Notes: generated by a model not told the origin, from the sequence alone. 64,000 nt of DNA from a virus (IMGVR_UViG_3300031555_004037); one strand, 5' to 3'; shown: positions 17,938 through 37,700, counted from the stretch's first letter. Made by a program: numbers and translations.

Positions 17938-17946
17938 AAATATGAT

Positions 17947-17993
17947 AAGCAAGGTAAGATATAAATAAGTGTCTTGCCTTGCTTGTATTTGTA
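17947..17993 (+). terminator. rho-independent terminator (13-bp stem, one G-U)
   Basis: AAGCAAGGTAAGA ... TCTTGCCTTGCTT then GTATTTGT. Confidence 0.5.
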
Positions 17994-18010
17994 AAAAGGA
18001 GAAATAAAAA

Positions 18011-19636: not shown

Positions 19637-19652
19637 ATTAAAATGCGTGGGT

Positions 19653-19702
19653 AAATTATCTAATAACATATAAAATATTAACTAAACAAATTATTAGATA
19701 AT
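19653..19702 (+). promoter_or_regulatory. 13-bp perfect inverted repeat AATTATCTAATAA / TTATTAGATAATT
   Basis: Arms at 19653-19665 and 19690-19702, 24-nt spacer, upstream of the repeat-protein gene; AT-rich. Confidence 0.3.
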
Positions 19703-19745
19703 TCGTTATTTAATAATTTGTTTTTTATTAAAAAGGAGAATTTTT

Positions 19746-23500: not shown

Positions 23501-23848
23501 TTATTTTTTATTTCTCGCTAATTCAAGTCCTTTTTCAATATTAAAGATAATAGGAATAAAATATAATAAATCTCCATCATCAATATCTAAATCTGAAAAT
23601 TCTATTTCATTTATATCCCCCTCTGTAATACATAACATTAGTTCTTCAACATTTAGTTTACATAATAATAAAAGTTCATCTTGATTTAATACTGAACACA
23701 ATTCATTTAAAGTAGACATAAAAATATCATCTTCTGCAAAATGAAACTCTAATTCATCTTTAATAATATTTTTTAAATCAACTCCACCCTTAAACATTTG
23801 TAAGGGTTCAACATTAACAGCAATAGTAATTTTTTTACGATAGTGCAT
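23501..23848 (-). CDS. acidic hypothetical protein (paralogue of 23932-24456)
   Basis: Shared N-terminal motif VNVEPLQMFKGGVDLKNIIKDEL; RBS AAGGAG 9 nt upstream on the minus strand. Confidence 0.5.
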   Translation of the reverse strand: MHYRKKITIAVNVEPLQMFKGGVDLKNIIKDELEFHFAEDDIFMSTLNELCSVLNQDELLLLCKLNVEELMLCITEGDINEIEFSDLDIDDGDLLYFIPIIFNIEKGLELARNKK

Positions 23849-23888
23849 AATAATATACTCCTTTCATATTTTATTATAATTAAATAGA

Positions 23889-23923
23889 ATAAAAAATAAG
23901 GGAGATATTTTAATTCTCCCTTA
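23889..23923 (-). terminator. rho-independent terminator for the minus-strand gene
   Basis: TAAGGGAGA...TCTCCCTTA; T-run on the minus strand. Confidence 0.5.
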
Positions 23924-23931
23924 TATATTAT

Positions 23932-24456
23932 TTATTTGTCTTCTTCAGAAAATATACCAATACCATTAACGAAGTCAAAAGCACCTTGATAATCCCATTC
24001 CATTTTATCCTTTGTAAAAAACAACTCTGCCTTGTTAAGATTTAAAGTAATAGGTATCATAACTGACATTGTACCATATATAAAATTGTCTACCTCTTCA
24101 TCAGTTTCTAAATCTTCCAAATCTTTCAATTCATCCACATTCAAGGTTAATTCATCTTCATTGTATCTGTCTAAATGAATATCATTTGGTTTTTCTACTG
24201 AAACATATCTCATACCCGTTTCCTTAACTTCTAAACATTGCATAAATTCGTCAAAAGTTAATTTAAGTGGTATATAATAATCCCTATTGTCTGTAAATTT
24301 TTCTGCAATAGCATTTGTTATTAAACCCCCTTGATTATAAAATTCATCTCGCAATTTTTCGGTAACTAAATCTTTTACCGTAATACCACCTTCAAACATC
24401 TGTGAAAGATTTACAGAAAAATGATACTGAAAGTCTACTAATTTGTCTTTGTTCAT
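23932..24456 (-). CDS. acidic hypothetical protein (paralogue of 23501-23848)
   Basis: VNLSQMFEGGITVKDLVTEKL; Asp/Glu-rich (DELKDLEDLETDEEVD). Confidence 0.5.
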   Translation of the reverse strand: MNKDKLVDFQYHFSVNLSQMFEGGITVKDLVTEKLRDEFYNQGGLITNAIAEKFTDNRDYYIPLKLTFDEFMQCLEVKETGMRYVSVEKPNDIHLDRYNEDELTLNVDELKDLEDLETDEEVDNFIYGTMSVMIPITLNLNKAELFFTKDKMEWDYQGAFDFVNGIGIFSEEDK

Positions 24457-24458
24457 TA

Positions 24459-24788
24459 TTATGAACCCTCCTTTAATTGTTTTTTATTTATATTATCAAT
24501 AAGTGCTTGTTCTTCTTCATAATTATCTTTATTTGTAAATGGTTCAGGTAAATGTGTCATTACATTATCCCAATCCACTTCTGTACCACAATTATGACAG
24601 AATTTTTCATTATTGCCTAAAATTCTAAAACTCTGTGAACAACAAGAACACTTATAAATAATTTCTTTATATGGATGCCACGATGTAATTTCTGTGGCAG
24701 TAGGTTTCATTTTTGATTTCATTTTTATCTCCTTATAAAAACATTTTGATTTAATTATTATATCAATATTATAAGTTTCTGTATACAA
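24459..24788 (-). CDS. zinc-ribbon protein
   Basis: CSCCSQSFRILGNNEKFCHNCG (Cys4). Confidence 0.5.
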   Translation of the reverse strand: MYTETYNIDIIIKSKCFYKEIKMKSKMKPTATEITSWHPYKEIIYKCSCCSQSFRILGNNEKFCHNCGTEVDWDNVMTHLPEPFTNKDNYEEEQALIDNINKKQLKEGS

Positions 24789-24862
24789 ATTTTTGATTTA
24801 TTTTAATGTTTTTTGGATATAACTACCTTTGAAATAATTAAAAGTTTGTTTATAATTAAAAA

Positions 24863-24881
24863 TTAAGCACTATTTAATTAT
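24863..24881 (+). promoter_or_regulatory. conserved intergenic motif TTAAGCACTATTTAATTAT (copy 2)
   Basis: In the divergent intergenic region, 66 bp upstream of the topoisomerase gene. Confidence 0.45.
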
Positions 24882-24946
24882 GTAAGTATACAAAAAATTA
24901 TTTTTTTGTTATAATAAATAAAAATTATAGAAAGGAAAATTAAATA

Positions 24947-26860
24947 ATGGGAAGTAATTTATACACAGAAAATAGTATTGTTACTGAATCTCCAAGAGAA
25001 TTTACGAGAAGAGTTCCATCTACTTATTTAGGTTCTAGCAAAAAGAATACTAACCTTGTTAAGGAAATCTTTGCCAATGCTGCTGATGAACACAGTATTG
25101 GAAACTGTGATTACATCAAAGTATCTGTAGATACAGATAAAAACATTTATATCGTTGAAGATAATGGACAAGGTTTTCTTGTAAATGCAGGTATTGATGA
25201 AGACGGAGAAACAATTTTACAGCGTTCTTTTGATAAATTAAATACATCAGGTAAAACAACTCAAGATGGTGTTTATCAAGGTACTGCTTTAGGACTAAAT
25301 GGTATTGGTGCAAAACTTACTAACTGGTTATCAAAATCTTTAAATGTAGTTACATATAGAGATGGAGAATTTGAAGAATTAAATTTTACAGATGGTATTT
25401 TTGTTAATAGAAAAGTTGGTAAGAAAGATAGACATTCTGGAACAGTAGTTACTTGGCATCCAGATGAACAATTCTTTGCTGAAAATATTCCTGACGATTT
25501 AGCATTAAAATCACATTTTGAAATTATTGCAGCATTATGTCCAAAATTAACTATTGAATACACTTATAATGGAAATAAAACTGTATATAAAGAGCCTAAT
25601 GGAATTACTGCTTATGTAGAAAGAAAAGTAAATGGGAAAGAATTATTTGCAAATCGTTTCATTATGGAAAGAAATATCGGTAAAGATGTTCTTAATATTT
25701 GTTTAACTTATACATCTGATTATTCAGAAAATATTGACGCTTATGTAAATTTAGGACATACAGATGGTGGAGAGCATATTAAGTCATTCCATACAGCATT
25801 TACAAAGGCTGTAAATAAGTATGCTACTGAAACAAATTTACTTAAAAAGAGTGATAAGAATTTTAGTACAGCCGAAATTTCAGAGGGATTATATGTAGTA
25901 TTTAATATGACTACAACAACTGCAAAATATGACGCACAGAATAAATCAAGAATTGATGATATTGACTCAAAGATTATCAATGCAGTAGTTGGTGGAGATT
26001 TTGCTACTTGGTTAATCAATAATCCTACTGACGCTAAAATTATTGTTGAGAGAGCCTTAACTGCAAGAAAAGCAAGAGAGGCTGCACAGAAAGCAAAGGA
26101 AAAGATTAGAGATGCTGGTAAAGTAAATAAGAAAACATTATTTGTAGATTTACCATCAAAATTATCTGACGCATATCCAAAGAATAAGAAAGATAGAAGT
26201 AATTGTGAAATTTATATCACAGAGGGAGATTCTGCTGCGTCTTCTATCAATGCGACAAAGGATAGTACATTCCAAGCCTGTTTCCCTATTCGTGGTAAGG
26301 TATTATGTTGTCAAAAGGCTACACCAGATAAAGTATTTGGAAATCAAGAAATTTCAAATATTGCAAAAGCACTTGGTCTTGAAATTGACAAATCAACTGG
26401 AAAACTTATTTATGATGCAAAGAAATTAAGATATGTAAGAATTATTATTGCAACTGATGCCGATGCTGATGGTGACGATATTTCTTCATTATTATTAACT
26501 GTGTTTAATTGGTTATGTCCAGAACTTATTGAAAATGGACATATTTATAGAGTATATGGTGCATTATTTAAGGCAACTTTTAATGATGGAACATATATAA
26601 CATTCCAAAACGATGTGGAATTTGAAAATTGGAAAAAGACTAATAAGAAAGCATATAAGTTATCTCGTGCTAAAGGTCTTGGAGAATTAACAAAAGAAGA
26701 AACCTATGAACAGTTAATCAATCCCGAAACAAGAGATTTAAGAAGACTTGTTGCGTCCGATATGGATGAATTTAATAAGTATCTTGAAATGTTTAAGGGT
26801 GCTGATATTGAACCTCGTAGAGCATATCTTGAAGAACATCATAATGATTATGAAGAGTAA
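24947..26860 (+). CDS. type IIA DNA topoisomerase, ATPase/TOPRIM subunit (GyrB/ParE/T4 gp39-like)
   Basis: GHKL ATP-binding FANAADEH; TOPRIM EGDSAASS and IIATDADADGDD. Confidence 0.85.
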   Translation: MGSNLYTENSIVTESPREFTRRVPSTYLGSSKKNTNLVKEIFANAADEHSIGNCDYIKVSVDTDKNIYIVEDNGQGFLVNAGIDEDGETILQRSFDKLNTSGKTTQDGVYQGTALGLNGIGAKLTNWLSKSLNVVTYRDGEFEELNFTDGIFVNRKVGKKDRHSGTVVTWHPDEQFFAENIPDDLALKSHFEIIAALCPKLTIEYTYNGNKTVYKEPNGITAYVERKVNGKELFANRFIMERNIGKDVLNICLTYTSDYSENIDAYVNLGHTDGGEHIKSFHTAFTKAVNKYATETNLLKKSDKNFSTAEISEGLYVVFNMTTTTAKYDAQNKSRIDDIDSKIINAVVGGDFATWLINNPTDAKIIVERALTARKAREAAQKAKEKIRDAGKVNKKTLFVDLPSKLSDAYPKNKKDRSNCEIYITEGDSAASSINATKDSTFQACFPIRGKVLCCQKATPDKVFGNQEISNIAKALGLEIDKSTGKLIYDAKKLRYVRIIIATDADADGDDISSLLLTVFNWLCPELIENGHIYRVYGALFKATFNDGTYITFQNDVEFENWKKTNKKAYKLSRAKGLGELTKEETYEQLINPETRDLRRLVASDMDEFNKYLEMFKGADIEPRRAYLEEHHNDYEE

Positions 26861-28936
26861 TTGGAGGAACTTATGTCAAAAAAAGTAGAAATTCCATTTA
26901 ATGTAATTGACCAAGATATTATTGGGGAATTAAAGAAAAATTATATTATCTATGCAAATGAGTTAAATAAACATAGAGCAATTCCTTATATCTTAAATGG
27001 TCTAAAGCCTATTGCAGCACATATTATTTGGGCTATGAAAGCAAATAATAGAACACATAATAAGAATTATACAAAATCTGCAAAGGTTACAGGAGAAATT
27101 ATGAATTATTCTCCACACGGAGATTCATATGACTCTTGTGTGAGATTAGCACAAGACTTTATTTATCATATTCCATATATTGATGGACACGGTTCTTTTG
27201 GTTCTGCCATTGGTGGACCTACTCCTGGTGCTTCAAGATATACGGAAATGAGATTAAGTAAATTTATTGAAGATGTATTATTATATAATACAGATTTATT
27301 AGATATGGGGCTTAATTATCTTGAAGAAGATGAAGAACCTATTATCAATAATTGGGTGGCATTATTACCTTTAATGTTTATTACTAATACAACAGGTATG
27401 GGATATGCTACATCACAAACTTGGTCATCTGGAAATTTATATGAATTTAGAGAACAATTATTAAATTATCTTAATAATGGAGAAGTTGATTGTTCTAATA
27501 TTTATCCAGATTTCCCTACTGGTGGTATTATTGTAAATAAATCCGATATGAAGTCCTTATATGAAAATGGTAAGGGTACAATTAAACTTCGTGGTAAGGC
27601 AGAAGTTGATGGTAATACAATTAGAATTTTATCATTACCATATCAGAAATATCCAGAACAGTTTATTGAAGATATTAAAAAGTATGTTGCAAATAATGCA
27701 AATACCATTAAAGATGTTGCGAATATGTGTGGTATGAATGGCTTTTTAATTGAAATTGAATGTGACGATGGAACTGCTGAATATACATTAGAAACATTGT
27801 ATAAGAAAACTTGTTTACAGATTAGTATTTCTGACGAACATAAAGCAGTTATGCCTAATGGAGAAATTAAATTAGTATCACTTAAAGACTATATTGAATG
27901 TTTTGTAAATGCTAATATTGAGTTGGTTAAGAAAGAAGCACAACTTAATCTTGATAAAATTAGTTCAAGACTTGAAATTGTAGATGGTCTTTTATCAGCA
28001 TTAGACATTATTGATGATATTATTAAAGAAATTAAATCATCTAAATCAATGGACGATGCAAAGAAAACTCTTATGACTAAAACAATTAAAGGTCATAAAT
28101 TTACAGAAAGACAAGCCGATGCTATTGTTCATACACCACTTGGTAGATTAGCAAATCTTGAAAAGGTTAAATTACAAGATGAAAAAGAAGAATTAGAGAA
28201 AAAGAAAGCAGAAAATGAAAACTTATTAGTTGATTATAATGCACAGAAAACATTCTTCTTAAATAGATTTAATTCCCTTATTGATAAGTATGCTTGGGAA
28301 AGAAAAACAGAAGTAATTGATGTTATAATTGATGAAGAAATTGCTGAAAAAATTAAGAAACCTAGACAGTTAAAAGTAAAGAAAGAATATATGATAGTAT
28401 TAACTGCTGAAAATTGCTTAAAACGAGTTGAGGTGTCTAAATTTAGAGCAACTTCGGAAGATGAAAAGACAGTTCGAGTACAAGGAAATGAAAGAATTGT
28501 TTTAGTATCAAATCGTGGTAATATGTATAAGGTATTTTCAAATAAGATTGATGTTTGTATGCCTGCTGCATCTGGAACTGATATTGCAACTATTAGACCT
28601 GAAATCAATGATGAAAAGATTATTGCTATTTATTCATCAGATGTAACAATTCCTTATGTGTATTTTGTTACAAAAGAGGGTATGGGTAAAAAGGTTAAGT
28701 CTAAAGATGTTATTCAGTTATCAAAGGATATTGGAACAACTGTATGTGGTATGAAAACTGATACTGATGAAGTAATTGCAATTAAGTTACTTAATGAAAA
28801 TGAAAATATTGAAATCACAACTACAAAGAGAAAGTTAGTAGTTGAATCAGGTAAGCCACAAGGTAGACCTGCTGTTGGACATAAAGTAATTGAGTTAAAG
28901 AAAGACGAAACTATTACAGAAGTCCATTCAATTTAA
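26861..28936 (+). CDS. type IIA DNA topoisomerase, DNA cleavage subunit (GyrA/ParC/T4 gp52-like)
   Basis: LNGLKPIAAHIIWAM ~ GyrA DGLKPVHRRVLYAM; active-site Tyr motif GASRYTEMRLS ~ AAMRYTEIRLA. Confidence 0.85.
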   Translation: MEELMSKKVEIPFNVIDQDIIGELKKNYIIYANELNKHRAIPYILNGLKPIAAHIIWAMKANNRTHNKNYTKSAKVTGEIMNYSPHGDSYDSCVRLAQDFIYHIPYIDGHGSFGSAIGGPTPGASRYTEMRLSKFIEDVLLYNTDLLDMGLNYLEEDEEPIINNWVALLPLMFITNTTGMGYATSQTWSSGNLYEFREQLLNYLNNGEVDCSNIYPDFPTGGIIVNKSDMKSLYENGKGTIKLRGKAEVDGNTIRILSLPYQKYPEQFIEDIKKYVANNANTIKDVANMCGMNGFLIEIECDDGTAEYTLETLYKKTCLQISISDEHKAVMPNGEIKLVSLKDYIECFVNANIELVKKEAQLNLDKISSRLEIVDGLLSALDIIDDIIKEIKSSKSMDDAKKTLMTKTIKGHKFTERQADAIVHTPLGRLANLEKVKLQDEKEELEKKKAENENLLVDYNAQKTFFLNRFNSLIDKYAWERKTEVIDVIIDEEIAEKIKKPRQLKVKKEYMIVLTAENCLKRVEVSKFRATSEDEKTVRVQGNERIVLVSNRGNMYKVFSNKIDVCMPAASGTDIATIRPEINDEKIIAIYSSDVTIPYVYFVTKEGMGKKVKSKDVIQLSKDIGTTVCGMKTDTDEVIAIKLLNENENIEITTTKRKLVVESGKPQGRPAVGHKVIELKKDETITEVHSI

Positions 28937-29022: not shown

Positions 29023-30378
29023 ATGACAACAAAATACAACAAAAAGTGGTATAAACCAGAAAAGTTAAGTACCAAAATTTTATTAACTGTATTAATTTTA
29101 TTATTTATCAGAGTATGTTCTAATATTCCTATTCCTTTTATCAATAAGGAATATCTTGAAATTATGTTTGCTGATAATTCAGCATTTTCACTTATTAATA
29201 CATTTTCTGGTGGTTCATTTACTCAAATGTCCTTTATGGCATTAAGTGTAACACCTTATATTACTGCATCTATTGTTTTACAATTATTAACTATTGTATT
29301 TCCTAAATTAGCAGAAATTCCAAAGGGTAGTCCAGAAGATAAAAAGAAATGGGAAATTTGGCAATTTGTTGTTGGTATTATTTTAGGAATTACACAATCT
29401 ATTGGTGTAGCATTAACTTTTGGTAGACAAGGTTTAATTACACCTTATAATTTTGGAACAGTTGCTTTAACCGTATTATTATGGTCATTAGGTGCTATAA
29501 TTACTATTGGAGCAGGTACATATATTACTAAATGTTGTTTTGGAAATGGTATCTCACTTATTTTAACAATGAATATTATTTCTTCATTACCTGGAGATAT
29601 TCTTAATTTCTATAATATGTATATTAAGGGAGAGAATATTGGAAATATTATTATTGCTTGTTTAGTAGGTCTTTTAATTGTTTTAGGACTTATTTCAGCA
29701 ACAGTTATTCTTAATGGGGCACAGAAAGAAATCAATGTAATTTATTCTAAAAATGCTTATAAGAATGGTGGAAATAATAAATCTGTATCAACTATTCCAC
29801 TTAAATTGAATATTGCTGGTGTAATGCCTGTAATTTTTACATCAACATTATTCTCATTACCACTTATGTTTTTAACAAATTCTTCAAATAAAGTAGCACA
29901 AGCAATAGTACATATTTGTTCATCTACTTATTGGTTTGACGGAGAACATTGGTGGAGAACTATTGGATTTTTCTTATATGGTGCGTTAGTTATATTCTTT
30001 GCATATTTTTATACTGCTATTGTATTTAATCCATTTGAAATTGCACAGAATTTAAAGAAATCAGGTGCTTGTATTCCTGGTGTTCGACCTGGACAACCTA
30101 CCATTGAATATTTAACAAAGCAAAGTAAGTATTTAACTTTAATTGGTGCTGTTTATTTATTCTTATTAACTCAAATTCCTATGTTTATTATGCAATTTAC
30201 AGACTTGAGTTATTTATCATTTGGTGGTACTTCAATTATTATTATTGTTGGTGTAGTATTAGAAATTGCTACAACTCTTAAATCTGAAAGATTAAAATTT
30301 GCTTATACAAAAGCAACCTCAAGTAATTCATTTTTAGGTTTAAAAACAAATCAAAATGTAAGAAAGGGAGTATTTTAA
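29023..30378 (+). CDS. secY: SecY protein translocase subunit (mobile-element-encoded copy)
   Basis: FSGGSFTQMSFMALSVTPYITASIVLQLLT ~ FSGGAL...ALGIMPYISASIIIQLLT; GITQSIGVALTF ~ AIFQSIGIATGL; LKKSGACIPGVRPGQPTIEYL ~ [21 protein letters not shown]; 10 TM-like segments; not in spc-operon context. Confidence 0.9.
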   Translation: MTTKYNKKWYKPEKLSTKILLTVLILLFIRVCSNIPIPFINKEYLEIMFADNSAFSLINTFSGGSFTQMSFMALSVTPYITASIVLQLLTIVFPKLAEIPKGSPEDKKKWEIWQFVVGIILGITQSIGVALTFGRQGLITPYNFGTVALTVLLWSLGAIITIGAGTYITKCCFGNGISLILTMNIISSLPGDILNFYNMYIKGENIGNIIIACLVGLLIVLGLISATVILNGAQKEINVIYSKNAYKNGGNNKSVSTIPLKLNIAGVMPVIFTSTLFSLPLMFLTNSSNKVAQAIVHICSSTYWFDGEHWWRTIGFFLYGALVIFFAYFYTAIVFNPFEIAQNLKKSGACIPGVRPGQPTIEYLTKQSKYLTLIGAVYLFLLTQIPMFIMQFTDLSYLSFGGTSIIIIVGVVLEIATTLKSERLKFAYTKATSSNSFLGLKTNQNVRKGVF

Positions 30379-30537
30379 ATGAGAAGATTAAGAAATGAAT
30401 TAAAATCAATTAAATGGTTAAAGAGTGATGATGTAATGAAACAAACATTATTAGTGACAAGTGTGACAGTTTTAAGTGGTGCAATTCTATTAGGACTTGA
30501 CACTCTTGTACAATATATTATTGGAATTATCGTATAA
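30379..30537 (+). CDS. secE: SecE translocase subunit (52 aa; not in ORF track)
   Basis: MRRLRNELKSIKWLKSDDVMKQTLLVTSVTVLSGAILLGLDTLVQYIIGIIV ~ Bacillus SecE (K-x-x-W-P ... single TM ... LLD); RBS AAGGGAG; directly downstream of secY. Confidence 0.7.
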   Translation: MRRLRNELKSIKWLKSDDVMKQTLLVTSVTVLSGAILLGLDTLVQYIIGIIV

Positions 30538-30546: not shown

Positions 30547-31227
30547 ATGTTAATAACTGATGTTATGAAAATCTGTAAAATAAAATGGTTATACAAGGAT
30601 AATGAATTTTATTATTGTATGACCGACATAGTTACAGGTAAGGATATAATTATATATTCAAGTAATGACGAATATGATGAAGAAGATGATGAAGAAGATG
30701 AATATGAGGACGAATATGACGAAGATGAAATAGATATAGAAAATGTAGCTTGTTTTCGTGAAAGATTTTATGAAACATATATACAATGTTCAAAAACTTT
30801 AGATAATATAATACAATCTGTAATTCTTATTGGGGAATTTGAAGAAGATGTGGATTGTATTTATCTAAATGTAGCAAATCTTTGTATGTTTGCATTTGTA
30901 GATTGGATTTGTCACGCAGGATATTTAGAGTTAAATCATAGAAATCATACTGCCAAAATGAAAGATACAATTTCAAGAAAAACAATTACAGTAATGAATT
31001 GTTCAGATGAATGTGCTGAATCACTTCAAGATTTTGTAAATTTTATGGCAACAAATGAAAAAGTTGATTATTCTCTTAATGGTAAAAATACAATTTTATT
31101 TATGGGAACTAATTTAATGTATGACTTTGAAAAAATACAGTATGATAATATATCTAACGATTTGACTTTTGGAGATTTAGAACATCTTTATATGGAATTA
31201 TTTGAATATATGTTATATGATAAATAA
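30547..31227 (+). CDS. highly acidic hypothetical protein
   Basis: DEYDEEDDEEDEYEDEYDEDEIDIEN; between secE and the flotillin gene. Confidence 0.45.
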   Translation: MLITDVMKICKIKWLYKDNEFYYCMTDIVTGKDIIIYSSNDEYDEEDDEEDEYEDEYDEDEIDIENVACFRERFYETYIQCSKTLDNIIQSVILIGEFEEDVDCIYLNVANLCMFAFVDWICHAGYLELNHRNHTAKMKDTISRKTITVMNCSDECAESLQDFVNFMATNEKVDYSLNGKNTILFMGTNLMYDFEKIQYDNISNDLTFGDLEHLYMELFEYMLYDK

Positions 31228-31250: not shown

Positions 31251-32780
31251 ATGAATGGACTAATTTCATTTGGAACAACTTTTGTTGTAATTGCTGTTAT
31301 TTTTGCAATTATTATTATTTTCACAAGTTATGTGAAAGCACCACCTGATAAAGCATATATTATTTCAGGTTTAAGAAGGAAACCAAAGATTTTAATTGGT
31401 AGAGCTGGATTAAAAATTCCGTTCTTTGAAAGAAAAGACGAATTGTTAATTAAGCAGATTTCTATTGATATTAAGACAGGCGATTATGTACCTACATTAG
31501 ATTTCATTGGTGTTAATATTGACGCTGTTGCAAAAGTCAAAGTTAGAACTGATGAAGAGGGTATTCAGTTGGCAATGAAGAACTTCCTTAATATGAGAGA
31601 AGACGCTATTATGAGTGCATTAGTTGATTCTTTACAAGGTAATATGAGAGAAATTATTGGTACTATTACTCTTAAAGATTTGTGTAATGATAGAAAGAAA
31701 TTCGGTGACGAAATTCAGAGTAAAGCACAGATTGATATGAATAATCTTGGTATTGAAATTATTTCTTGTAACATTCAGCACGTTGAAGACCAAAATGATT
31801 TAATCATTGCTTTAGGTCAAGATAATATGGCAAAAATTCAGAAAGATGCGTCAATCGCAAAGGCTATGGCTGATAGAGATGTTGCTATTGCACAAGCACA
31901 AGCAGAAAAAGAAGCAAATGACGCAAAAGTTCAATCAGATACAGAAATTGCTATTAAGCAAAATGAGTTGGCTATTAAGAGAGCAGAACTTAAAACTATT
32001 GAAGATGCTAAAAAGGCAGAGGCAGACGCTGCATATAAGATTCAAGAAGAAGAGCAGAGAAAGTCTATTGAGGTATCAACTGCTAATGCAGATATTGCTC
32101 GTCAAGAGAAAGAAATTGAATTAAAGAGAAAAGAGGCTGAAGTTCAAGAACAGGCACTTGACGCACAGATTAAGAAACAAGCAGAGGCAGAAAGATTTGC
32201 TAAACAACAAGCAGCAGACGCAGAATTGTATGAAAGACAGAGAAATGCAGAGGCAGAAAAGTTTGAATTAGAAAAACAAGCAGAGGCAAGAAAAGCACAG
32301 GCTGATGCAGACAGATATGCAAGAGAGCAAGAGGCAGAGGGTATTGCTGCTGTTGGTAAAGCAGAGGCAGAGGCTATTGCAGCTAAAGGTAAAGCAGAAG
32401 CAGAAGCACTTGAAAAGAAAGCCGAAGCAATGAAGAAATATGGACAAGCAGCAATTATTGAAATGATTGTTGATAAGTTACCAGATATTGCAGCATCAGT
32501 TGCTAAACCTTATGGAGATATTGATAACTTTACAGTTATTGACGGTGGAAATGGCGAGGGCAATAGTGTAGGTAATTTAGTACCACAGAATATTGCTAGT
32601 ACAAGAAAAGTAATCAATGATTTACTTGGTGTTGATATTGCTGATTTAGTTAGAGCAGATACATATGACGCTAAAGTAAATAAGAATGTAACAGTTAGTG
32701 GATTAGAGAATTTACAGTCTGTTACCGTAAATAATGAGTGTAATACTACACCAACAACTACAACAGTTGTAGAAGAATAA
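31251..32780 (+). CDS. flotillin-like SPFH/band-7 protein (FloT/YqiK-like)
   Basis: N-terminal TM; SPFH domain (YIISGLRRKPKILIGRAGLKIPFFE...); long Ala/Glu-rich coiled coil (AEAEA repeats) typical of flotillins. Confidence 0.8.
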   Translation: MNGLISFGTTFVVIAVIFAIIIIFTSYVKAPPDKAYIISGLRRKPKILIGRAGLKIPFFERKDELLIKQISIDIKTGDYVPTLDFIGVNIDAVAKVKVRTDEEGIQLAMKNFLNMREDAIMSALVDSLQGNMREIIGTITLKDLCNDRKKFGDEIQSKAQIDMNNLGIEIISCNIQHVEDQNDLIIALGQDNMAKIQKDASIAKAMADRDVAIAQAQAEKEANDAKVQSDTEIAIKQNELAIKRAELKTIEDAKKAEADAAYKIQEEEQRKSIEVSTANADIARQEKEIELKRKEAEVQEQALDAQIKKQAEAERFAKQQAADAELYERQRNAEAEKFELEKQAEARKAQADADRYAREQEAEGIAAVGKAEAEAIAAKGKAEAEALEKKAEAMKKYGQAAIIEMIVDKLPDIAASVAKPYGDIDNFTVIDGGNGEGNSVGNLVPQNIASTRKVINDLLGVDIADLVRADTYDAKVNKNVTVSGLENLQSVTVNNECNTTPTTTTVVEE

Positions 32781-32842
32781 AAAAATTATTAGTAGAGTAC
32801 GGTCTAAAAAGGTCGTACTCTATTATAATGTAAGGAGATAAT

Positions 32843-34651
32843 ATGTGGAAGAAAATTAGAGAATGGTTTAAAAAGAATAGGGGTTTAATTATTATTAGTT
32901 TTTTAGCCTCTATTATTACAATAACAATTTTACAAAATCGTCAATTATCTCAACAGCCTGAAATTAAAACCATTTCATATCAAGAATTTGAACAACTTGT
33001 AGAAGAAGAAAAAGTAGATAGTATCTATTATAATAAATCAAATGAATGGATGACTATTACTTTATTTAATGTTGAATCAAAAACATTAGATGCAAAAGAG
33101 AGATTAAATTATCAAGGATATACAAATGAAGATAAAAGAAATGTATCATATCCAGCATATGAAGAATTTAGGCACGATATGTTGAGTAATAATATAAATA
33201 TGATAATTGTAGACCCAAAAGTGTCTTTTATTGAAAAAGCATTATCAATCGTTTCTTTAATGTTTCCGTTATTATGGGTTTTTATTATTATGAGAATGTT
33301 AATTAGTTCTACTCAAGGAAATGTTAAAAGAAAAGAAATTATACAAACAAGTAATGTAAAATTTACTGATATTATTGGTCACGAAGAGATATTAGAAGAT
33401 GTTAAATTCATTACTGAACTTATTAAAAACCCTAAACTTGGAGATGATATAGGGGCAAAAGTTCCTAAAGGTATTTTATTAAGTGGAGAACCAGGTACAG
33501 GAAAAACTCTTATTGCAAAAGCAATCGCAGGAGAGGCAGGAGTACCATTCTTATATCAAAATGCGTCAAGTTTTATAGATAGATTTGTCGGTATGGGTGC
33601 AAAAAATGTTCGTGATTTATTTAAACTTGCAAAAGAAAATGCCCCTTGTGTATTATTTATAGATGAAATTGACGCTATTGGTGGAAATAGAAATAATGGT
33701 AAGGGTACATCTGAAAATGACCAAACAATAAATGCGTTATTACAAGAAATGGATGGTTTTACAGGTAGAGAGGGAATTTTTATAATTGCTGCTACTAATA
33801 GACCTGATATTCTTGATAGTGCTTTGGTTAGAGCAGGACGATTTGATAGACAAATTATTGTATCTGCCCCTAGAGATTGGGGAGTTAGAAAAGATTTATT
33901 TGAACATTATCTAAATAAATTTAAAGTTTTAGATGATGTAAATATAGTAAATTTAAGTAAACAAACAGCAGGATTTACTGGTGCTGATATTGCTGCAATT
34001 TGTAATGAGGCTAGTATTATTGCAGTTATGCAAGAAAAAGACGCTATTGATATGGATTGTATTGAAGAGGCTATTGATAAGAAAATCTTTAAAGGAAATC
34101 GTGCTAAAAAAGAGAAATACTTTGAAGATAAAAAGATTGTTGCTTATCACGAATCTGGACACGCTGTTATGAGTTATTTATTAGGAGAACCTATTGCTAG
34201 AGCAAGTATTCAATCTACTGTTTCTGGTGTTGGTGGTGTAGTATTTAATGAAGATAAAGATAGTGTATTTCAAACTAATATTGACTTTGAGAATAGAGTT
34301 TTGATATGCTATGCTGGTAGAGCATCAGAAGAAATTAAATTCAACTCTGTTACAACTGGTGCTTCTAATGATATTACACAAGCAACAAATGTTATGATGA
34401 ACTACATAGAAAAATTTGGTTTTGATAAAGAATTTGGTTTATTAGATATTGGTGTTTTAAGTAAGGAACATTTAATCAATAGTGAAGAAATTACTAATAA
34501 ATTAAGTAATATGTCTAGGAATTTATATGAAAAAAGTTTATCATTATTAAAAGATAACTATAAATTAGTAGAAACTTTGGCTAATAAATTATTAGATGTT
34601 GGAACATTATCTGGTGACGAAATTACAGAATTATTTAATAACTGTAATTAA
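32843..34651 (+). CDS. ftsH: FtsH-family membrane AAA+ zinc metalloprotease
   Basis: Two N-terminal TM helices; Walker A GEPGTGKT; Walker B VLFIDEIDAIG; second region of homology ATNRPDILDSALVRAGRFDRQ; HEXXH HESGHAV. Confidence 0.9.
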   Translation: MWKKIREWFKKNRGLIIISFLASIITITILQNRQLSQQPEIKTISYQEFEQLVEEEKVDSIYYNKSNEWMTITLFNVESKTLDAKERLNYQGYTNEDKRNVSYPAYEEFRHDMLSNNINMIIVDPKVSFIEKALSIVSLMFPLLWVFIIMRMLISSTQGNVKRKEIIQTSNVKFTDIIGHEEILEDVKFITELIKNPKLGDDIGAKVPKGILLSGEPGTGKTLIAKAIAGEAGVPFLYQNASSFIDRFVGMGAKNVRDLFKLAKENAPCVLFIDEIDAIGGNRNNGKGTSENDQTINALLQEMDGFTGREGIFIIAATNRPDILDSALVRAGRFDRQIIVSAPRDWGVRKDLFEHYLNKFKVLDDVNIVNLSKQTAGFTGADIAAICNEASIIAVMQEKDAIDMDCIEEAIDKKIFKGNRAKKEKYFEDKKIVAYHESGHAVMSYLLGEPIARASIQSTVSGVGGVVFNEDKDSVFQTNIDFENRVLICYAGRASEEIKFNSVTTGASNDITQATNVMMNYIEKFGFDKEFGLLDIGVLSKEHLINSEEITNKLSNMSRNLYEKSLSLLKDNYKLVETLANKLLDVGTLSGDEITELFNNCN

Positions 34652-34708: not shown

Positions 34709-37700
34709 ATGAAAAGCAAAAGATTAAAAACTCGAATTTTGGCATTATTTTTAACTATGTTGCTTGTTACTAATTCTCCATTAGTTGCTATGGCTGAAAA
34801 TAATCCATCATTTGTAGAAGACGAAATAGTTACTACCGAAGAAACAACTACAGAAGAAGTAACTACGGAAGAGGTAACTACGGAAGAAATTATAACAGAA
34901 GAAGTAACAACAGAGGAAATCACAACGGAGGAAATCACAACAGAAGAAGTTGTAACCGAAGAGATTACGACAGAAGAAACAACTACAGAAGATGTAATAG
35001 AAGAAATACCTATTACATTTAATCTTAATAGAAATACTTTAGTTGAATATTGTGTTCCGTCTGAAGTAATAACTAAAATTGAATCTACTACATTTACACA
35101 TCAAACAACAGAATATAATAAATATGAATTGATTACAGATAATGCAGTAGATAATAACAATAATGTTTGGTATGTTTATTCTGTTAAGAGTGTTTTAGAC
35201 GATGAAGTAATAACTTTAGGTAATGTTATATTCCCTAAATCAGTTAAAATAGAAGATACCTTAATTATTCCTGCGTCTGTAACAGATTCCGAAACTTATT
35301 CAGTATATGGTGTAGGTAATAGTAGTTTTAAAGACGCAAATATAATTAACACATTAGAAATTGAATCTGGAATAAGGACTATTGAAGATTCAGCATTTGA
35401 AAATTGTGGTGTTTCAAACATAACATTATCAGATACAATTATATCTTTTGGTTCGTCAGTATTTGCTAATAATGATAATCTTACATCATTTACTTTTCCG
35501 ACAAATCCAGCATTTGTTGAAACAGGTTATAAAGTTTTATATGATTGTAATAATTTAACATCAATTACATTAGGAGAGAATATTAAAGTTATTTCAGCAG
35601 AATCATTCTATCAATGTAATAAATTGACTAATGTAGTCATTCCAGACGGTTTACAAGCAATATTATATAGAGCATTTGCAAAAACTGCTATAACAGAAAT
35701 CAATTTAAAGAATATAACTGGATTAGGTGCTCAATCATTTGAACATTGTTATAATCTTGAAACTATTGATTGGGGTGCTTGTTTATGGGGTGGAAAGATT
35801 GATTATAGAACTTTCTATATGTGTAATTCATTAAAAGAAATCAATATACCTGATAATGTTGAGGTTGTAGGAACTGACGCTTTTAATGGTTGTACATCTG
35901 TTACAAGCATTGACTTGAATAATGTTATTCAAATTGAATATTGTGGATTTGCTAATACAGGTATTACTGAATTGACAATTCCTGAATCCGTTAAATCAAT
36001 GGGTGCATTTTCATTTGGTAATACCACAAATCTTGAAACTGTAACATTTAAAAATGATATTAGAATTTATATTAGTGATGATTCAGCACCAAGTAAACAA
36101 TTATTTATAGTATTTGGTAAATTAACATATAATGAGCCTAGTGATACTTGGAATAATGACGGTGGTGCTTGGAAAAATGATGTTATTAAAAAAATAATAA
36201 TAGATAATGAAAATATTACAGATTGTACTTTTGTTCCAAATGGAATGTTTCAGTATATGGGAATTGAAGAGGTTATTCTTTCTGATAATATTTCCACATT
36301 AAATTATCAAGCATTTTTTGATTGTAAAAATTTAAAGACTATTAAAGCAAATAAATTAAATGCAATTCAAGATTCAGTATTTCAGAATTGTACTTCATTA
36401 GAAGAAATAAATCCAACTGACGATGTAAAAATTAACTTTCCAGATACACTTTATTGGATAGGTACTAATGCCTTTTTTAAGTGTAGTTCATTAGGAGATG
36501 TTACATTAGATAAAAACATTTTCCATATTGGTAATAGTGCTTTTTATAACTCTGGTATTACTAATCTTGTGATTGGTAATAATGTTACTGAAATCGGTTC
36601 TTCTGCATTTAAAGAATTAGTAAATTGTGAAAGCATATATATAGATGTTGAACCGTCTTTAGTAGAATATAGAGAATACGGAACAATGTTTTGGGGATGT
36701 ACTTCATTAGATACTTTAACTATTGGTAAAAATGTAACTACTCTTGAACCAAATTGTCTACAAAATATGGTCACAAAACATCTTATTTTTGAAGAGGGTA
36801 GCACAATTACTGAAATACCAAATCATTGTGTTTATGGAAATGCTAATCTTGAAAGTGTTGTTTTACCAGAAAATTTAATAACAATTAGTGAAGAGGCATT
36901 TCAAGCCTGTTATTCTTTAAAAAGTATTGAATTACCAAATACAATTACTACAATTAAAAGAAATGGTTTCTTTGGATGTCATTCACTTGAAACAATAACT
37001 GGTTTAGAGAATGTTGAGTATATTGGTAATCACGCTTTCTTTAACAATATAAATCTTAAAGAAGTATATATTGGGGAAAATGTTAATTATTTAGGTGCAG
37101 CATCATTCTTTAATACTTATTCACTTGAAAAAGTTACTATTGATAATAAGTATATGATTGATGAAACTACAGGAGAAACTATTTGTAAAACAAGTGAAAC
37201 TCAAACTGAACCACAAGTACAAAACTATCTTACTAGAGTATTTGGTAGAGATGATAGAAATTTTGACCATAATGGTTTAGCATCACATTTAAACTTTAAT
37301 AAAGAAAATTGTACACCACAACATTCATATTTTGAATTAATAATTACTGATAAAGTAGCACAATTACAAGATTATGAGTGTGAGGGTATGTATGTAAGTA
37401 AAGTTACTATTCAAGATAATGGAAAACTTACTGAAATTCCTTATATGTGTTTTAGTAATTGTGAATATTTAGAAACAGTTAATTTAGGTACAATAAATAA
37501 AATTGATAAATACGCATTTACTTGTTGTACAAGTCTAACTGAAATTGAATTACCAATGTCTGTAACTAATGTTGGAGAATATGCTTTTTCTGGTTGTGAT
37601 TCACTAGAAGAAATATATTTATGGAATCCTGATGTTAAAATAGAAAATTATGAGGGTAGTGAATTAAAACACGCTACTGAAATAGTAAATGGTGGTTCAA

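What the first reader, a model, noticed from the sequence alone, without database searches (positions are those of the whole stretch)
31251..34651. Flotillin plus FtsH gene pair carried with the translocon
The 509-aa SPFH protein has an N-terminal TM helix and an extended Ala/Glu-rich coiled coil typical of FloT/YqiK flotillins. The 602-aa FtsH has all AAA+ and HEXXH motifs and two N-terminal TM helices. Flotillin-FtsH functional coupling is known in Bacillus membrane microdomains. Carrying both on a phage-like element suggests remodelling of host membrane proteostasis, or protection and assembly of the co-encoded translocon and its cargo.
Basis: partly seen in the sequence, partly recalled or inferred. 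Interest (0 to 1): 0.75.

Follow-up and report, generated by a model that had tools for sequence, protein, structure and literature searches.

The report
Huge-phage flotillin–FtsH–SecYE membrane module
A roughly 320 kb uncultured phage of rumen-type Lachnospiraceae bacteria carries intact copies of a membrane scaffold (flotillin) and a membrane quality-control protease (FtsH) next to its own SecY/SecE protein-export channel, all captured from its hosts at different times, which suggests the virus brings its own membrane-protein assembly and clean-up kit.

Summary
ORF 31251-32780 is a FloT-type flotillin and ORF 32843-34651 is a catalytically intact FtsH. SecY, SecE and a conserved acidic protein lie directly upstream, and a 1727-aa sortase-anchored surface protein lies downstream.

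The element belongs to an uncultured clade of 300-440 kb phage-like genomes that GenBank phages lack and IMG/VR nearly lacks.

The two genes have different histories:
- FtsH is clade-wide. Its sister group is a cellular Lachnospiraceae FtsH subtype (51% identity) that shares a derived active-site strand and is itself flanked by SPFH genes.
- The flotillin was captured later from an Eubacterium ruminantium-like host (72-78% identity). It occurs in only one subclade, always between SecE and FtsH. It is fully AT-ameliorated and under purifying selection, so it is not a recent passenger.

The pairing is not general. None of 63 viral flotillin loci has an FtsH within 10 kb, and none of 154 viral FtsH loci has an SPFH gene within 10 kb.

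The best reading is a phage-encoded export and quality-control module in which a recaptured SPFH scaffold partners the phage FtsH. Gene identities are secure. The physical coupling is inferred, and virion genes were not seen. I rate it a new variant of a known kind, of moderate to high interest.

The parts
24947..28936 (+). gyrB (24947-26860) and gyrA (26861-28936): conserved neighbours of the module in the phage clade; context only
   Evidence: Pfam and NCBIfam hits. They are 55-80% identical and syntenic with SecY/FtsH in L010, L012, L094, L095, L098 and L102.
29023..30378 (+). SecY translocon channel subunit (451 aa, 9 hydrophobic segments detected at the scan threshold)
   Evidence: Pfam SecY 9.9e-77; TIGR00967 at 294 bits, above its cut-off of 253.6. 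Identity is 48-98% within the phage clade and about 41-43% to Lachnospiraceae SecY. dN/dS is 0.28-0.44 between lineages.
30379..30537 (+). SecE (52 aa, single C-terminal TM), start codon abutting the secY stop
   Evidence: Called gene with PF00584 SecE in identical contigs; translation. It follows SecY in L010, L012, L095, L098 and L175.
30547..31227 (+). Acidic 226-aa protein of unknown function (23% Asp+Glu) that always lies upstream of the flotillin in the flotillin-bearing subclade
   Evidence: No Pfam, NCBIfam, PHROG or PADLOC family. Homologs are the L098 217-aa protein (29% identity, 2e-21) and the L012 208-aa protein (weak, E 0.001 to the window; 37% identity, 1.6e-45, to the L098 protein), both upstream of the flotillin (L012 has two further small ORFs in between).
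31251..32780 (+). FloT-type flotillin (509 aa): N-terminal membrane anchor 5-23, SPFH domain about 49-208, Ala/Glu/Lys-rich coiled coil about 196-400, Flot domain 369-461
   Evidence: It is 72% identical to the chromosomal E. ruminantium flotillin of the same length. GC3 is 0.19 against 0.43 in the host gene, and dN/dS is 0.14-0.17 against other phage copies.
32785..32829 (+). Strong RNA hairpin in the 62-nt flotillin-FtsH spacer, followed by TATAAT and an AAGGAG ribosome-binding site. It may act as an attenuator or stabiliser that uncouples or sets the flotillin:FtsH expression ratio.
   Evidence: MFE -19.2 kcal/mol against -6.0 +/- 2.1 for shuffles, z = -6.4, 0 of 200 shuffles fold as well; sequence. 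Its function is inferred only.
32843..34651 (+). FtsH AAA+ zinc metalloprotease (602 aa): TM1 14-32, extracytoplasmic domain, TM2 136-154, AAA+ 211-340, lid 365-409, M41 428-597. The canonical IIPRG.ALG strand is replaced by SIQSTVSGVGGVVF (455-468).
   Evidence: PHROG phrog_30773 matches full length at 1e-110.
34709..39892 (+). 1727-aa exported surface protein: signal peptide, TTEE repeats, seven matched BspA-type LRR_5 stretches, Listeria-Bacteroides repeat, Big_2, CarboxypepD_reg/SdrD_B domains, C-terminal SPETG + TM + KKYKK sorting signal. It is the most obvious client of the translocon.
   Evidence: Pfam LRR_5 1.5e-120, Big_2 3.5e-16, Flg_new 6.6e-14; hydrophobic segments 10-28 and 1704-1722; sequence.

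Best explanation
The window is part of an uncultured huge phage (contig about 324 kb) that infects rumen or gut Lachnospiraceae. It carries a membrane-protein biogenesis and quality-control module in the order secY-secE-(acidic 226 aa)-flotillin-ftsH, followed by a giant wall-anchored surface protein.

Shown:
- All four known genes are intact, with their catalytic and structural motifs conserved under purifying selection.
- FtsH, and usually SecY/SecE, are ancestral to the whole phage clade.
- The closest cellular FtsH proteins, from Lachnospiraceae isolates, share a derived active-site strand and are flanked by SPFH (Band_7) genes.
- The flotillin was captured later from an E. ruminantium-like host, once at the base of the window/L012/L098 subclade, landing between secE and ftsH. 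Other large phages captured flotillins independently.

Inferred mechanism:
1. The flotillin oligomerises on the inner face of the host membrane into a cage or microdomain.
2. Like HflK/C in E. coli and FloA/FloT in Bacillus, it corrals and stabilises the phage FtsH hexamers, and probably the phage SecYE.
3. FtsH removes orphan or jammed SecY and misfolded membrane proteins.
4. Together they sustain export of the phage's many lipoproteins, membrane proteins and sortase-anchored proteins during a long infection.

The phage lineage took FtsH without its native SPFH partners, and this subclade later regained an SPFH partner of a different subfamily.
For: Gene identity and integrity.

Phage nature:
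- The identical genes occur on contigs of up to 323,839 bp, and relatives are 300-440 kb.
- The window encodes a UvsX-like recombinase, DnaB, primase, split jumbo-phage-type RNA polymerase beta fragments, a split NAD ligase, thymidine kinase and GIY-YIG genes.
- Relatives carry Mom, anti-Pycsar Apyc1, Phage_phiTE_072, T5orf172, inteins and TnpB.
- One clade member is the IMG/VR viral genome IMGVR_UViG_3300021400_002728, 394 kb.
- There are no tRNA genes, and no translation-machinery genes among the roughly 45 of 61 window ORFs that were scanned.

Synteny: flotillin lies between SecE and FtsH in the window, L012 and L098.

FtsH ancestry: the phage clade is monophyletic, and its sister group is the three cellular Lachnospiraceae FtsH proteins, which share ARASIQST.SGVGG. 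Those cellular genes are flanked by 2-3 Band_7 genes.

Flotillin ancestry:
- The nearest named homolog is a chromosomal E. ruminantium gene.
- Phage copies have GC3 0.10-0.19 against 0.43 in the host gene, and dN/dS 0.14-0.20.
- The subclade copies are monophyletic, while L099 and L175 sit on other branches.

Client load: 17 of 61 ORFs of at least 100 aa have strongly hydrophobic segments. They include four with lipobox signal peptides and the 1727-aa SPETG-anchored protein.

Established knowledge:
- FloA/FloT bind and stabilise FtsH, and FloT interactors include secretion proteins (PMC3892786).
- FtsH degrades SecY that lacks SecE and co-purifies with SecYEG (PMC8082313).
- HflK/C cages enclose FtsH (PMC12048511 abstract).

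A related mobile element (L178) has signal peptidase I overlapping its FtsH gene. That is a second link between FtsH and the export pathway.
Against: - Nothing here tests a physical flotillin-FtsH or flotillin-SecYE interaction.
- The pairing is rare. Only 3 of 9 FtsH-centred loci in the clade have a flotillin within 10 kb. In IMG/VR, 0 of 63 flotillin loci have FtsH or SecY nearby and 0 of 154 FtsH loci have an SPFH gene nearby. So each gene is clearly useful to phages on its own.
- In L012 and L098, a PARP gene and a small ORF separate the flotillin from FtsH.
- A strong hairpin plus a -10-like element separates the two genes in the window, so they may not be co-transcribed.
- The cellular SPFH neighbours are stomatin or HflK/C-like proteins, not FloT-type.
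- dS is near saturation (0.7-1.7), so the dN/dS values are rough.
- No capsid, portal, terminase or tail gene was seen in the window or in the flanks of relatives, so the phage assignment rests on indirect evidence.
Confidence: 0.5

Rival explanations
1. The two genes do independent jobs and are neighbours by chance. The flotillin is a stand-alone host-derived accessory gene. It might keep the membrane fluid, organised and energised during a long infection, or act on host proteins including the host FtsH. The FtsH serves the phage separately. They lie together only because host-derived membrane genes accumulate at the same permissive site downstream of secYE.
For: - 63 large IMG/VR viral contigs encode FloT-type flotillins at 43-74% identity, and none has FtsH or SecY within 10 kb.
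- The GenBank contigs L001 and L002 carry a flotillin with no adjacent FtsH.
- Most FtsH-clade phages have no flotillin nearby.
- In L175 the flotillin lies about 8 kb from SecE and not beside FtsH.
- A hairpin and a -10-like element lie between the two genes.
Against: - In the one subclade that has both genes, the flotillin has stayed between secE and ftsH across lineages that have diverged to 70-72% FtsH identity.
- The cellular sister FtsH genes are themselves embedded among SPFH genes.
- An unrelated element (L099) also has a flotillin about 5.5 kb from an AAA+M41 protein.
- SPFH-AAA protease partnerships are a widely conserved theme (PMC3892786).
Confidence: 0.3
2. FtsH is mainly a takeover or regulatory protease. 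It would degrade host targets (host SecY, regulators, defence or division proteins) or unstable phage regulators, as host FtsH does with lambda CII. The flotillin would act as an HflK/C-like modulator that restrains or redirects it. One variant has the phage FtsH clearing the host translocon so that phage SecYE replaces it.
For: - FtsH is clade-wide, intact and under selection.
- Its substrate-binding strand beside the active site is altered relative to canonical FtsH, which could change its specificity.
- FtsH is known to degrade SecY and sigma-32 (PMC8082313).
- Other jumbo phages without SecY also carry FtsH, so FtsH has uses in phages beyond servicing a phage translocon.
Against: - The altered strand is shared with the cellular Lachnospiraceae sister proteins, so it is not a phage-specific retargeting.
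- No candidate substrate or adaptor was identified.
- The consistent linkage with SecYE, and in L178 with signal peptidase, fits quality control of export at least as well.
Confidence: 0.15
3. The element is not a phage. It could be a cellular genome fragment, a megaplasmid or another extrachromosomal element of a Lachnospiraceae bacterium, in which case SecYE, FtsH and the flotillin would be ordinary housekeeping genes.
For: - No virion hallmark gene was seen in the 64 kb window or in the flanks of relatives.
- NCBI labels one clade FtsH as 'AAA family ATPase [bacterium]'.
- A T2SSE-family ATPase, a type also found in conjugation and pilus systems, is present.
- IMG/VR holds only one clade member.
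Against: - GC is 27%, against 40-46% for the Lachnospiraceae chromosomal contigs examined.
- No tRNA or ribosomal genes were found.
- There are many ORFans, nearly all on one strand.
- Jumbo-phage-type split RNA polymerase, UvsX, Mom, Apyc1, phiTE_072, T5orf172, homing endonucleases and inteins are present in the window or its relatives.
- Contig sizes cluster at 300-440 kb across many samples.
- A 394 kb member is catalogued as viral.
- The SecY, FtsH and flotillin are all divergent from, and compositionally unlike, the host copies.
Confidence: 0.07

Closest known systems
Bacillus subtilis FloT/FloA-FtsH functional membrane microdomain
   Same: It pairs a FloT-type flotillin (N-terminal anchor, SPFH domain, Ala/Glu-rich coiled coil, Flot domain) with a membrane FtsH in a Firmicute setting. 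In Bacillus the flotillins bind FtsH, raise its level and activity, and associate with secretion proteins (PMC3892786).
   Different: Here both genes are virus-encoded and adjacent, and they sit beside virus-encoded SecY/SecE. The interaction is untested. In this clade the flotillin is an add-on present in only one subclade.
E. coli HflK/HflC-FtsH cage complex, and the SPFH-flanked FtsH loci of Lachnospiraceae isolates MC2017, KH1P17 and NK4A144
   Same: An SPFH-family scaffold is genetically linked to an FtsH protease. The Lachnospiraceae isolate FtsH proteins are the sister group of the phage FtsH and share its unusual ARASIQST.SGVGG strand.
   Different: The cellular partners are short stomatin or HflK/C-like Band_7 proteins of 275-359 aa, not a 509-aa flotillin. 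The phage did not inherit them; it later acquired a different SPFH subfamily from another host gene.
FtsH genes of cultured jumbo phages (Pseudomonas phages PA5oct and MIJ3, Microcystis phage MaAM05; PHROG phrog_30773)
   Same: They are full-length phage-encoded FtsH proteins with AAA+ and M41 domains (PMC6892783 listed).
   Different: They are only 33-34% identical and belong to a different lineage. No SPFH or SecY gene was detected within 10 kb of any of the 154 IMG/VR FtsH loci examined; the genomes of the cultured jumbo phages themselves were not screened for SPFH or SecY genes.
Flotillin genes in other large gut and rumen phages (63 IMG/VR contigs; GenBank MT835492 and MT836322; annotated 'flotillin family protein' in Vibrio phage KIT04 and phage csAssE-Sib)
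   Same: They are virus-borne FloT-type flotillins, at 43-74% identity in IMG/VR and 23-58% in GenBank.
   Different: None has an FtsH or SecY nearby. None is discussed in the jumbo-phage papers searched.

Membership tests
FtsH (AAA+ / peptidase M41 membrane protease; TIGR01241) | Two N-terminal transmembrane helices bracketing an extracytoplasmic domain | tested here: met
   Hydrophobic segments 14-32 and 136-154. There is a weak FtsH_ext match at residues 16-68, 25.0 bits against a cut-off of 25.5.
FtsH (AAA+ / peptidase M41 membrane protease; TIGR01241) | AAA+ module with Walker A, Walker B, aromatic-hydrophobic-Gly pore loop and second region of homology with arginine fingers | tested here: met
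   GEPGTGKT 215, VLFIDE 270, FVG 248, TNRPDILDSALVRAGRFD 318. All are invariant in 10 clade members. Pfam AAA 8e-44.
FtsH (AAA+ / peptidase M41 membrane protease; TIGR01241) | M41 zinc site: HEXXH plus a downstream acidic ligand | tested here: met
   HESGH 436-440, SEE 495-497 and GASNDI 506-511 are invariant across the clade. Peptidase_M41 3e-30. Aligned to 7TDO.
FtsH (AAA+ / peptidase M41 membrane protease; TIGR01241) | Score above the curated equivalog cut-off, and the canonical IIPRG.ALG strand beside the active site | tested here: not met
   TIGR01241 scores 477 bits against a cut-off of 600. The strand reads SIQSTVSGVGGVVF. This makes it a divergent subfamily that the cellular Lachnospiraceae homologs share.
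FtsH (AAA+ / peptidase M41 membrane protease; TIGR01241) | Hexamer formation and ATP-dependent proteolysis | not testable with these tools
   This needs biochemistry.
Flotillin, FloT/YqiK type (Pfam Band_7 + Flot; NCBIfam NF058507) | N-terminal membrane anchor followed by an SPFH domain | tested here: met
   Hydrophobic segment 5-23. Band_7 matches residues 49-208 at 35.4 bits against a cut-off of 23.6.
Flotillin, FloT/YqiK type (Pfam Band_7 + Flot; NCBIfam NF058507) | Long Ala/Glu-rich coiled coil and a C-terminal flotillin domain | tested here: met
   Residues 196-400 are A 25%, E 17%, K 13%. Flot matches residues 369-461 at 35.6 bits against a cut-off of 27. Residues 30-471 align to flotillin-1 at E 7e-51.
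Flotillin, FloT/YqiK type (Pfam Band_7 + Flot; NCBIfam NF058507) | Score above the curated FloT equivalog cut-off | tested here: not met
   294.6 bits against a cut-off of 700. The model is built on the Bacillus type. The protein is nevertheless 72% identical to an annotated chromosomal flotillin of E. ruminantium.
Flotillin, FloT/YqiK type (Pfam Band_7 + Flot; NCBIfam NF058507) | Oligomeric cage or microdomain formation at the membrane | not testable with these tools
   Inferred only, from homology to the flotillin cage structures 9L3G and 9BQ2.
SPFH scaffold-FtsH protease supercomplex (HflK/C-FtsH, FloA/T-FtsH) | Genetic linkage of an SPFH gene and ftsH, conserved among relatives | tested here: inconclusive
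   The genes are adjacent in the window and two genes apart in L012 and L098. There is no flotillin within 10 kb in L010, L094, L095, L096, L102 and L178. Linkage is present in the cellular sister loci. It is absent from 63 + 154 other viral loci.
SPFH scaffold-FtsH protease supercomplex (HflK/C-FtsH, FloA/T-FtsH) | Physical association and functional dependence | not testable with these tools
   This needs co-purification, localisation or genetics.
Jumbo/huge tailed phage | Genome larger than 200 kb with phage-type replication, transcription and anti-defence genes | tested here: met
   Contig of 323,839 bp. UvsX, DnaB, primase and split RNA polymerase beta PHROGs. Mom, Apyc1, phiTE_072 and T5orf172 in relatives or flanks. 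An IMG/VR member of 394 kb.
Jumbo/huge tailed phage | Virion hallmark genes (major capsid, portal, terminase, tail) | tested here: inconclusive
   None was found in the window or in the flanks of relatives. Only about a fifth of the genome was accessible.
IetAS anti-phage defence system | IetA AAA+ ATPase paired with the IetS protease | tested here: not met
   The PADLOC IetA hits cover only the generic AAA+ region, residues 174-437. The protein carries its own M41 protease domain and two TM helices. No IetS match was found among the neighbours scanned.

The most novel reading that the evidence does not exclude
This phage clade installs an orthogonal, virus-specified membrane-protein biogenesis platform in the infected cell. 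The platform would comprise its own SecYE channel, its own FtsH and, in this subclade, its own flotillin cage, which would fence these into a viral membrane microdomain. Phage-encoded lipoproteins, pilus or secretion components and giant wall-anchored adhesins would be made and policed there independently of the host machinery. Possibly the phage FtsH also removes the host translocon. That would be a bacterial-virus counterpart of the membrane 'factories' of eukaryotic viruses, assembled from genes captured one after another from the host lineage.
Probability: 0.15. Interest if true: 0.85.

Novelty: new variant of a known kind. Interest (0 to 1): 0.62.

Why it matters
Phages are normally assumed to depend on the host Sec system and host FtsH. 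Lambda's lysis-lysogeny decision depends on host FtsH and HflK/C.

A clade of huge phages that carries its own translocon and its own FtsH, and that in one branch has regained an SPFH scaffold beside that FtsH, shows that viruses can take ownership of membrane proteostasis.

The result is also a natural experiment on SPFH-FtsH coupling. The phage lineage took the protease without its native SPFH partners and later acquired an SPFH protein of a different subfamily. That makes the long-debated question of what flotillins do for FtsH and for secretion directly testable with a compact, portable gene set.

There are practical consequences:
- These 300-440 kb elements are nearly absent from viral catalogues, and some are labelled 'bacterium' in NCBI.
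- FloT-type flotillins are common in large gut phages (63 IMG/VR contigs) but go unmentioned in the jumbo-phage literature searched.
- The host-derived genes give a concrete host prediction: an Eubacterium ruminantium-like Lachnospiraceae.

Tried and rejected
1. Megablast of 24 kb of the window against GenBank phages found nothing.
2. tblastn of the RNA-polymerase-like and SNF2 proteins found only remote phage hits, below 40% identity over partial lengths. There is no cultured relative.
A clade-specific DNA pattern for ARASIQxTxSGxGG solved this.
4. A single-protein IMG/VR scan returned only a 43% relative.
5. I used the last exact-protein look-ups to extend beyond both window ends in search of capsid or terminase genes. 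None was found, and the longest contigs were not returned.
6. PADLOC gave nothing for the flotillin, SecY or the acidic protein, and only generic AAA hits (IetA, TRIP13) for FtsH. I rejected the defence-system reading.
7. The sigma-70 promoter and terminator scans showed no enrichment over shuffles and were uninformative.
8. Full-text searches of the jumbo and huge phage literature for SecY, FtsH, flotillin and SPFH found nothing beyond the known PA5oct/MIJ3 FtsH.
9. I considered the 'recent passenger DNA' reading for the flotillin and rejected it on amelioration, selection and conserved position.
10. An early impression that FtsH had no cellular relative above about 40% identity was overturned by the genome scan, which found 51% in Lachnospiraceae isolates.
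11. These trees have no support values.

Full report
**1. What is at the coordinates**

ORF 31251-32780 (509 aa) is a flotillin.
- Pfam Band_7 and Flot both score above their gathering cut-offs, and NCBIfam FloT matches at 1.6e-87 over nearly the full length.
- It has a single strongly hydrophobic N-terminal segment (residues 5-23) and an Ala/Glu/Lys-rich stretch at 196-400.
- Residues 30-471 align with human flotillin-1 from the solved cage structures 9L3G and 9BQ2 (E 7e-51).

ORF 32843-34651 (602 aa) is an FtsH.
- It has the AAA, AAA_lid_3 and Peptidase_M41 domains, and TIGR01241 matches at 1e-142.
- It has two hydrophobic segments (14-32 and 136-154).
- Walker A and B, the FVG pore loop, the second region of homology, HESGH and the downstream GASNDI/SEE acidic positions are all present.
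- All of these are invariant across ten relatives of 60-75% identity.
- It aligns with full-length T. maritima FtsH (7TDO).

Both proteins fall below NCBIfam's equivalog cut-offs, so they are divergent members of their families.

The FtsH has one clear peculiarity. The canonical IIPRG.ALG strand beside the active site is replaced by SIQSTVSGVGGVVF.

**2. The surroundings**

The gene order is gyrB, gyrA, secY (29023-30378), a 52-aa secE (30379-30537), an acidic 226-aa ORF with no family match, the flotillin, ftsH, and then a 1727-aa protein.

The 1727-aa protein has a signal peptide, BspA-type leucine-rich repeats, Big_2 and related domains, and a C-terminal SPETG + TM + basic tail. From my own knowledge, this is a clostridial-type sortase signal.

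A strong RNA hairpin sits in the 62-nt spacer between the flotillin and ftsH (-19.2 kcal/mol, z = -6.4). A TATAAT and an AAGGAG ribosome-binding site follow it. The two genes may therefore be expressed at different levels or separately.

By a crude hydropathy scan, 17 of 61 ORFs of at least 100 aa carry strongly hydrophobic segments, and four of these have lipobox-type signal peptides. The element thus encodes many clients for an export system.

**3. What the element is**

- The window is 27% GC, almost entirely on one strand, and has no tRNA genes.
- It encodes a UvsX-like recombinase, DnaB, primase, two fragments matching jumbo-phage RNA polymerase beta PHROGs, a split NAD-dependent ligase, thymidine kinase, GIY-YIG endonucleases and many ORFans.
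- The identical FtsH occurs on contigs of up to 323,839 bp.
- FtsH relatives of 60-78% identity sit on contigs of 200-440 kb from many samples.
- Those contigs carry Mom, anti-Pycsar Apyc1, Phage_phiTE_072, PARP/PARG, inteins and TnpB.
- A clade-specific DNA pattern found one member in IMG/VR, a 394-kb viral genome.
- GenBank phages hold no relative.

I did not find capsid, portal, terminase or tail genes in the window or in the flanks I could fetch. The huge-phage assignment is very likely, in my judgement about 0.9, but it is not proven.

**4. Is the pair conserved?**

I examined nine FtsH-centred loci of the clade.

| Locus | Arrangement |
|---|---|
| Window | secY-secE-226 aa-flotillin-ftsH |
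| L012, L098 | secY-secE-PolyA_pol-(1-3 small ORFs, including the acidic-protein homolog)-flotillin-PARP-small ORF-ftsH |
| L095 | secY-secE-228 aa-ftsH, no flotillin |
| L010, L102 | ftsH-x-gyrB-gyrA, then secY-secE in L010; no flotillin |
| L094, L096 | No flotillin within 10 kb |
| L178 | No flotillin within 10 kb; a D5-primase-bearing element in a Lachnospiraceae MAG with a signal peptidase I gene overlapping the start of its FtsH |

FtsH is therefore clade-wide, SecY/SecE is usually nearby, and the flotillin belongs to one subclade.

L175 is another clade lineage. It has a flotillin about 8 kb downstream of secE.

**5. Where the genes came from**

*Flotillin.*
- The nearest named homolog is the flotillin of Eubacterium ruminantium (74% by BLASTP local alignment; 72% in the pairwise MAFFT alignment), which has the same length.
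- That gene sits in an ordinary chromosomal context with MnmE, GidA, ABC/FtsX and a two-component system.
- Phage copies have GC3 of 0.10-0.19 against 0.43 for the host gene, and dN/dS of 0.14-0.20 between lineages (dS is near saturation, so these values are rough).
- In a neighbour-joining tree the window, P0131, L098 and L012 copies form one clade.
- The copy on L099, an unrelated AT-rich contig of small ORFs, is 91% identical to the E. ruminantium protein but has GC3 of 0.12. The L175 copy is on a third branch.
- The flotillin has therefore been captured from Lachnospiraceae hosts at least three times and kept under selection. It is host-derived but not a recent passenger.

*FtsH.*
- The clade-specific motif scan of GTDB genomes hit only Lachnospiraceae: three rumen-type isolates (MC2017, KH1P17, NK4A144; 51% identity; GC 42-46%) and one MAG (L178).
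- In a neighbour-joining tree the phage clade is monophyletic and the three isolate proteins are its sister group.
- In those isolates the FtsH gene is flanked by SPFH genes. MC2017 has a 309-aa Band_7 gene upstream and a 275-aa one beyond the next gene. NK4A144 has ORFs of matching lengths (309, 102, 597 and 312 aa) in the same order, although its ORFs were not scanned. KH1P17 has an HflK/C-like pair (359 + 289 aa) and a further 310-aa Band_7 gene.
- So linkage to SPFH genes is a property of the cellular relatives of this particular FtsH.

*SecY.* It shows the same pattern at greater depth: 48-98% identity within the clade and about 41-43% to Anaerostipes and Ruminococcus SecY.

**6. How general is the pairing?**

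- IMG/VR contains 63 viral contigs, mostly 90-413 kb, with FloT-type flotillins of 43-74% identity. None has an FtsH or SecY homolog within 10 kb.
- Of 154 IMG/VR loci carrying an FtsH, none has a flotillin, another Band_7 protein, SecY or signal peptidase within 10 kb. A positive control recovered FtsH in all 154.
- PHROGs has a full-length FtsH family but no family for the flotillin, SecY or SecE.
- Each gene is therefore separately useful to phages, and their co-location is specific to this Lachnospiraceae phage lineage. L099 is a partial second case: its flotillin lies about 5.5 kb from a 988-aa AAA+M41 protein.

**7. Mechanism**

Established knowledge:
- In B. subtilis, FloA and FloT interact with FtsH and are needed for its activity. 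Overproducing them raises FtsH levels. FloT's partners include secretion proteins, and secretion drops without flotillins (PMC3892786).
- In E. coli, HflK/C cages enclose FtsH (PMC12048511 abstract).
- FtsH degrades SecY that lacks SecE and co-purifies with the translocon (PMC8082313).

From this I infer that the phage flotillin forms a membrane-associated oligomeric scaffold. The scaffold would organise and stabilise the phage FtsH, and probably the phage SecYE. FtsH would police the translocon and its clients. Together the set would sustain export of the phage's lipoproteins, membrane proteins and its giant wall-anchored protein.

The evolutionary pattern is the strongest comparative argument for a functional link. 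The phage lineage took the protease without its SPFH neighbours, and an SPFH protein of a different type was later inserted beside it and kept there. That the flotillin is dispensable in most of the clade, and independent of FtsH across other phages, is the strongest argument against an obligate link.

I put about 0.5 on the coupled-module reading, 0.3 on independent functions with incidental adjacency, and 0.15 on a mainly regulatory or takeover role for FtsH. The remainder is for a non-phage element.

**8. Comparison and novelty**

The proteins are members of known families (FtsH, flotillin, SecY, SecE), although divergent ones. The closest systems are:
- the Bacillus FloT/FloA-FtsH microdomain;
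- the HflK/C-FtsH complex;
- the SPFH-flanked FtsH loci of Lachnospiraceae.

Phage FtsH has precedent in PA5oct and MIJ3. Flotillin genes are annotated in a few phage records.

I found no report of flotillin, FtsH and SecYE together on a phage, nor of phage-encoded SecY, in the papers searched. The library does not cover all journals.

I classify the finding as a new variant of a known kind, with interest 0.62.

Noticed in passing
window 59496-60698 (with 58188-59492, 60718-61230, 61217-63667): A T2SSE-family (PilB/GspE/VirB11-type) secretion or pilus ATPase (Pfam 5e-35; PHROGs 26606 and 19065). ORFan, multi-TM (an Imp-YgjV-like 170-aa protein) and lipoprotein genes surround it. This may be a phage-encoded pilus or secretion apparatus, and so another client or partner of the translocon.
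   Followed up: partly
window 54959-56053 and 56915-57706: The NAD-dependent DNA ligase is split into an N-terminal gene (phrog_3869 positions 6-381) and a C-terminal gene (positions 390-653). Two small ORFs (56060-56849) separate them, which looks like an insertion or a deliberately split enzyme.
   Followed up: no
window 13097-15319 and 15297-16547: Two adjacent ORFs give weak, partial matches to jumbo-phage 'RNA polymerase beta subunit' PHROGs (3295, 2987, 2986). This suggests a highly divergent split multisubunit RNA polymerase.
   Followed up: no
window 44520-45458; also 9562-10422, 10438-11451, 62918-63667: Four ORFs have lipoprotein-type signal peptides (…L-x-G-C…). One of them is a DNA/RNA non-specific endonuclease (Endonuclea_NS_2, 3e-24), which is therefore predicted to be exported. 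Homologs of it lie near the flotillin in 12 IMG/VR contigs.
   Followed up: partly
window 32785-32829: An unusually stable hairpin (-19.2 kcal/mol, z = -6.4) sits between the flotillin stop codon and the ftsH ribosome-binding site. Its conservation in relatives was not checked.
   Followed up: partly
L099 (ENA STEW19-1_SAMEA5383931 scaffold_264), 10001-20039: A separate AT-rich contig of small ORFs has a flotillin 91% identical in protein to the E. ruminantium chromosomal copy, but with GC3 of 0.12 against 0.43. It is followed by three GGDEF proteins and an unusual 988-aa protein with AAA, AAA_lid_6 and Peptidase_M41 domains.
   Followed up: partly
L178 (CALAWD010000028.1, Lachnospiraceae MAG), 4411-7982: A contig with 41.5% GC has a D5-like primase-helicase and a signal peptidase I gene whose end overlaps the start of an FtsH. 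That FtsH is 64% identical to the window's and branches with the phage clade rather than with the cellular isolates in the neighbour-joining tree.
   Followed up: partly
L176, L177, L179 (Lachnospiraceae isolates MC2017, KH1P17, NK4A144): The chromosomal FtsH genes with the same derived ARASIQST.SGVGG strand sit among Band_7/SPFH genes in MC2017 (two) and KH1P17 (three), next to a phosphomannose isomerase gene. NK4A144 has ORFs of the same lengths in the same order, but they were not scanned. Whether this FtsH is the housekeeping copy or a paralog in these species was not determined.
   Followed up: partly
IMG/VR loci L182-L244: 63 large viral contigs, many from sample 3300045988, encode FloT-type flotillins. 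Ten of them have gyrB/gyrA homologs within 10 kb. Flotillin looks like a common but undiscussed accessory gene of large gut phages.
   Followed up: partly
P0263 and P0081: A SecY 56% identical to the window's is labelled 'MAG: Bacilli bacterium' on a 504-kb contig. A clade FtsH is labelled 'AAA family ATPase [bacterium]' on a 135-kb contig. These may be huge-phage contigs deposited as bacterial MAGs.
   Followed up: no
L095 920-3490: The gyrB of a 364-kb relative contains an intein (Intein_splicing). L175 also has an intein-containing ORF. TnpB/IS605-type genes are scattered in L095 and L096.
   Followed up: no
window 23501-24788: The three ORFs of at least 100 aa on the minus strand that do not lie inside a longer plus-strand ORF (115, 174 and 109 aa; no annotation) sit just upstream of gyrB. 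They coincide with the one dip in GC skew, 0.03 at 24001-26000. This may be a module boundary or a regulatory island.
   Followed up: no
L012 and L098, between secE and ftsH: Relatives carry PolyA_pol/CCA-adding-like, PARP, PARG and GGDEF/EAL genes interleaved with the membrane module. The window lacks the PolyA_pol and PARP genes at this position.
   Followed up: no
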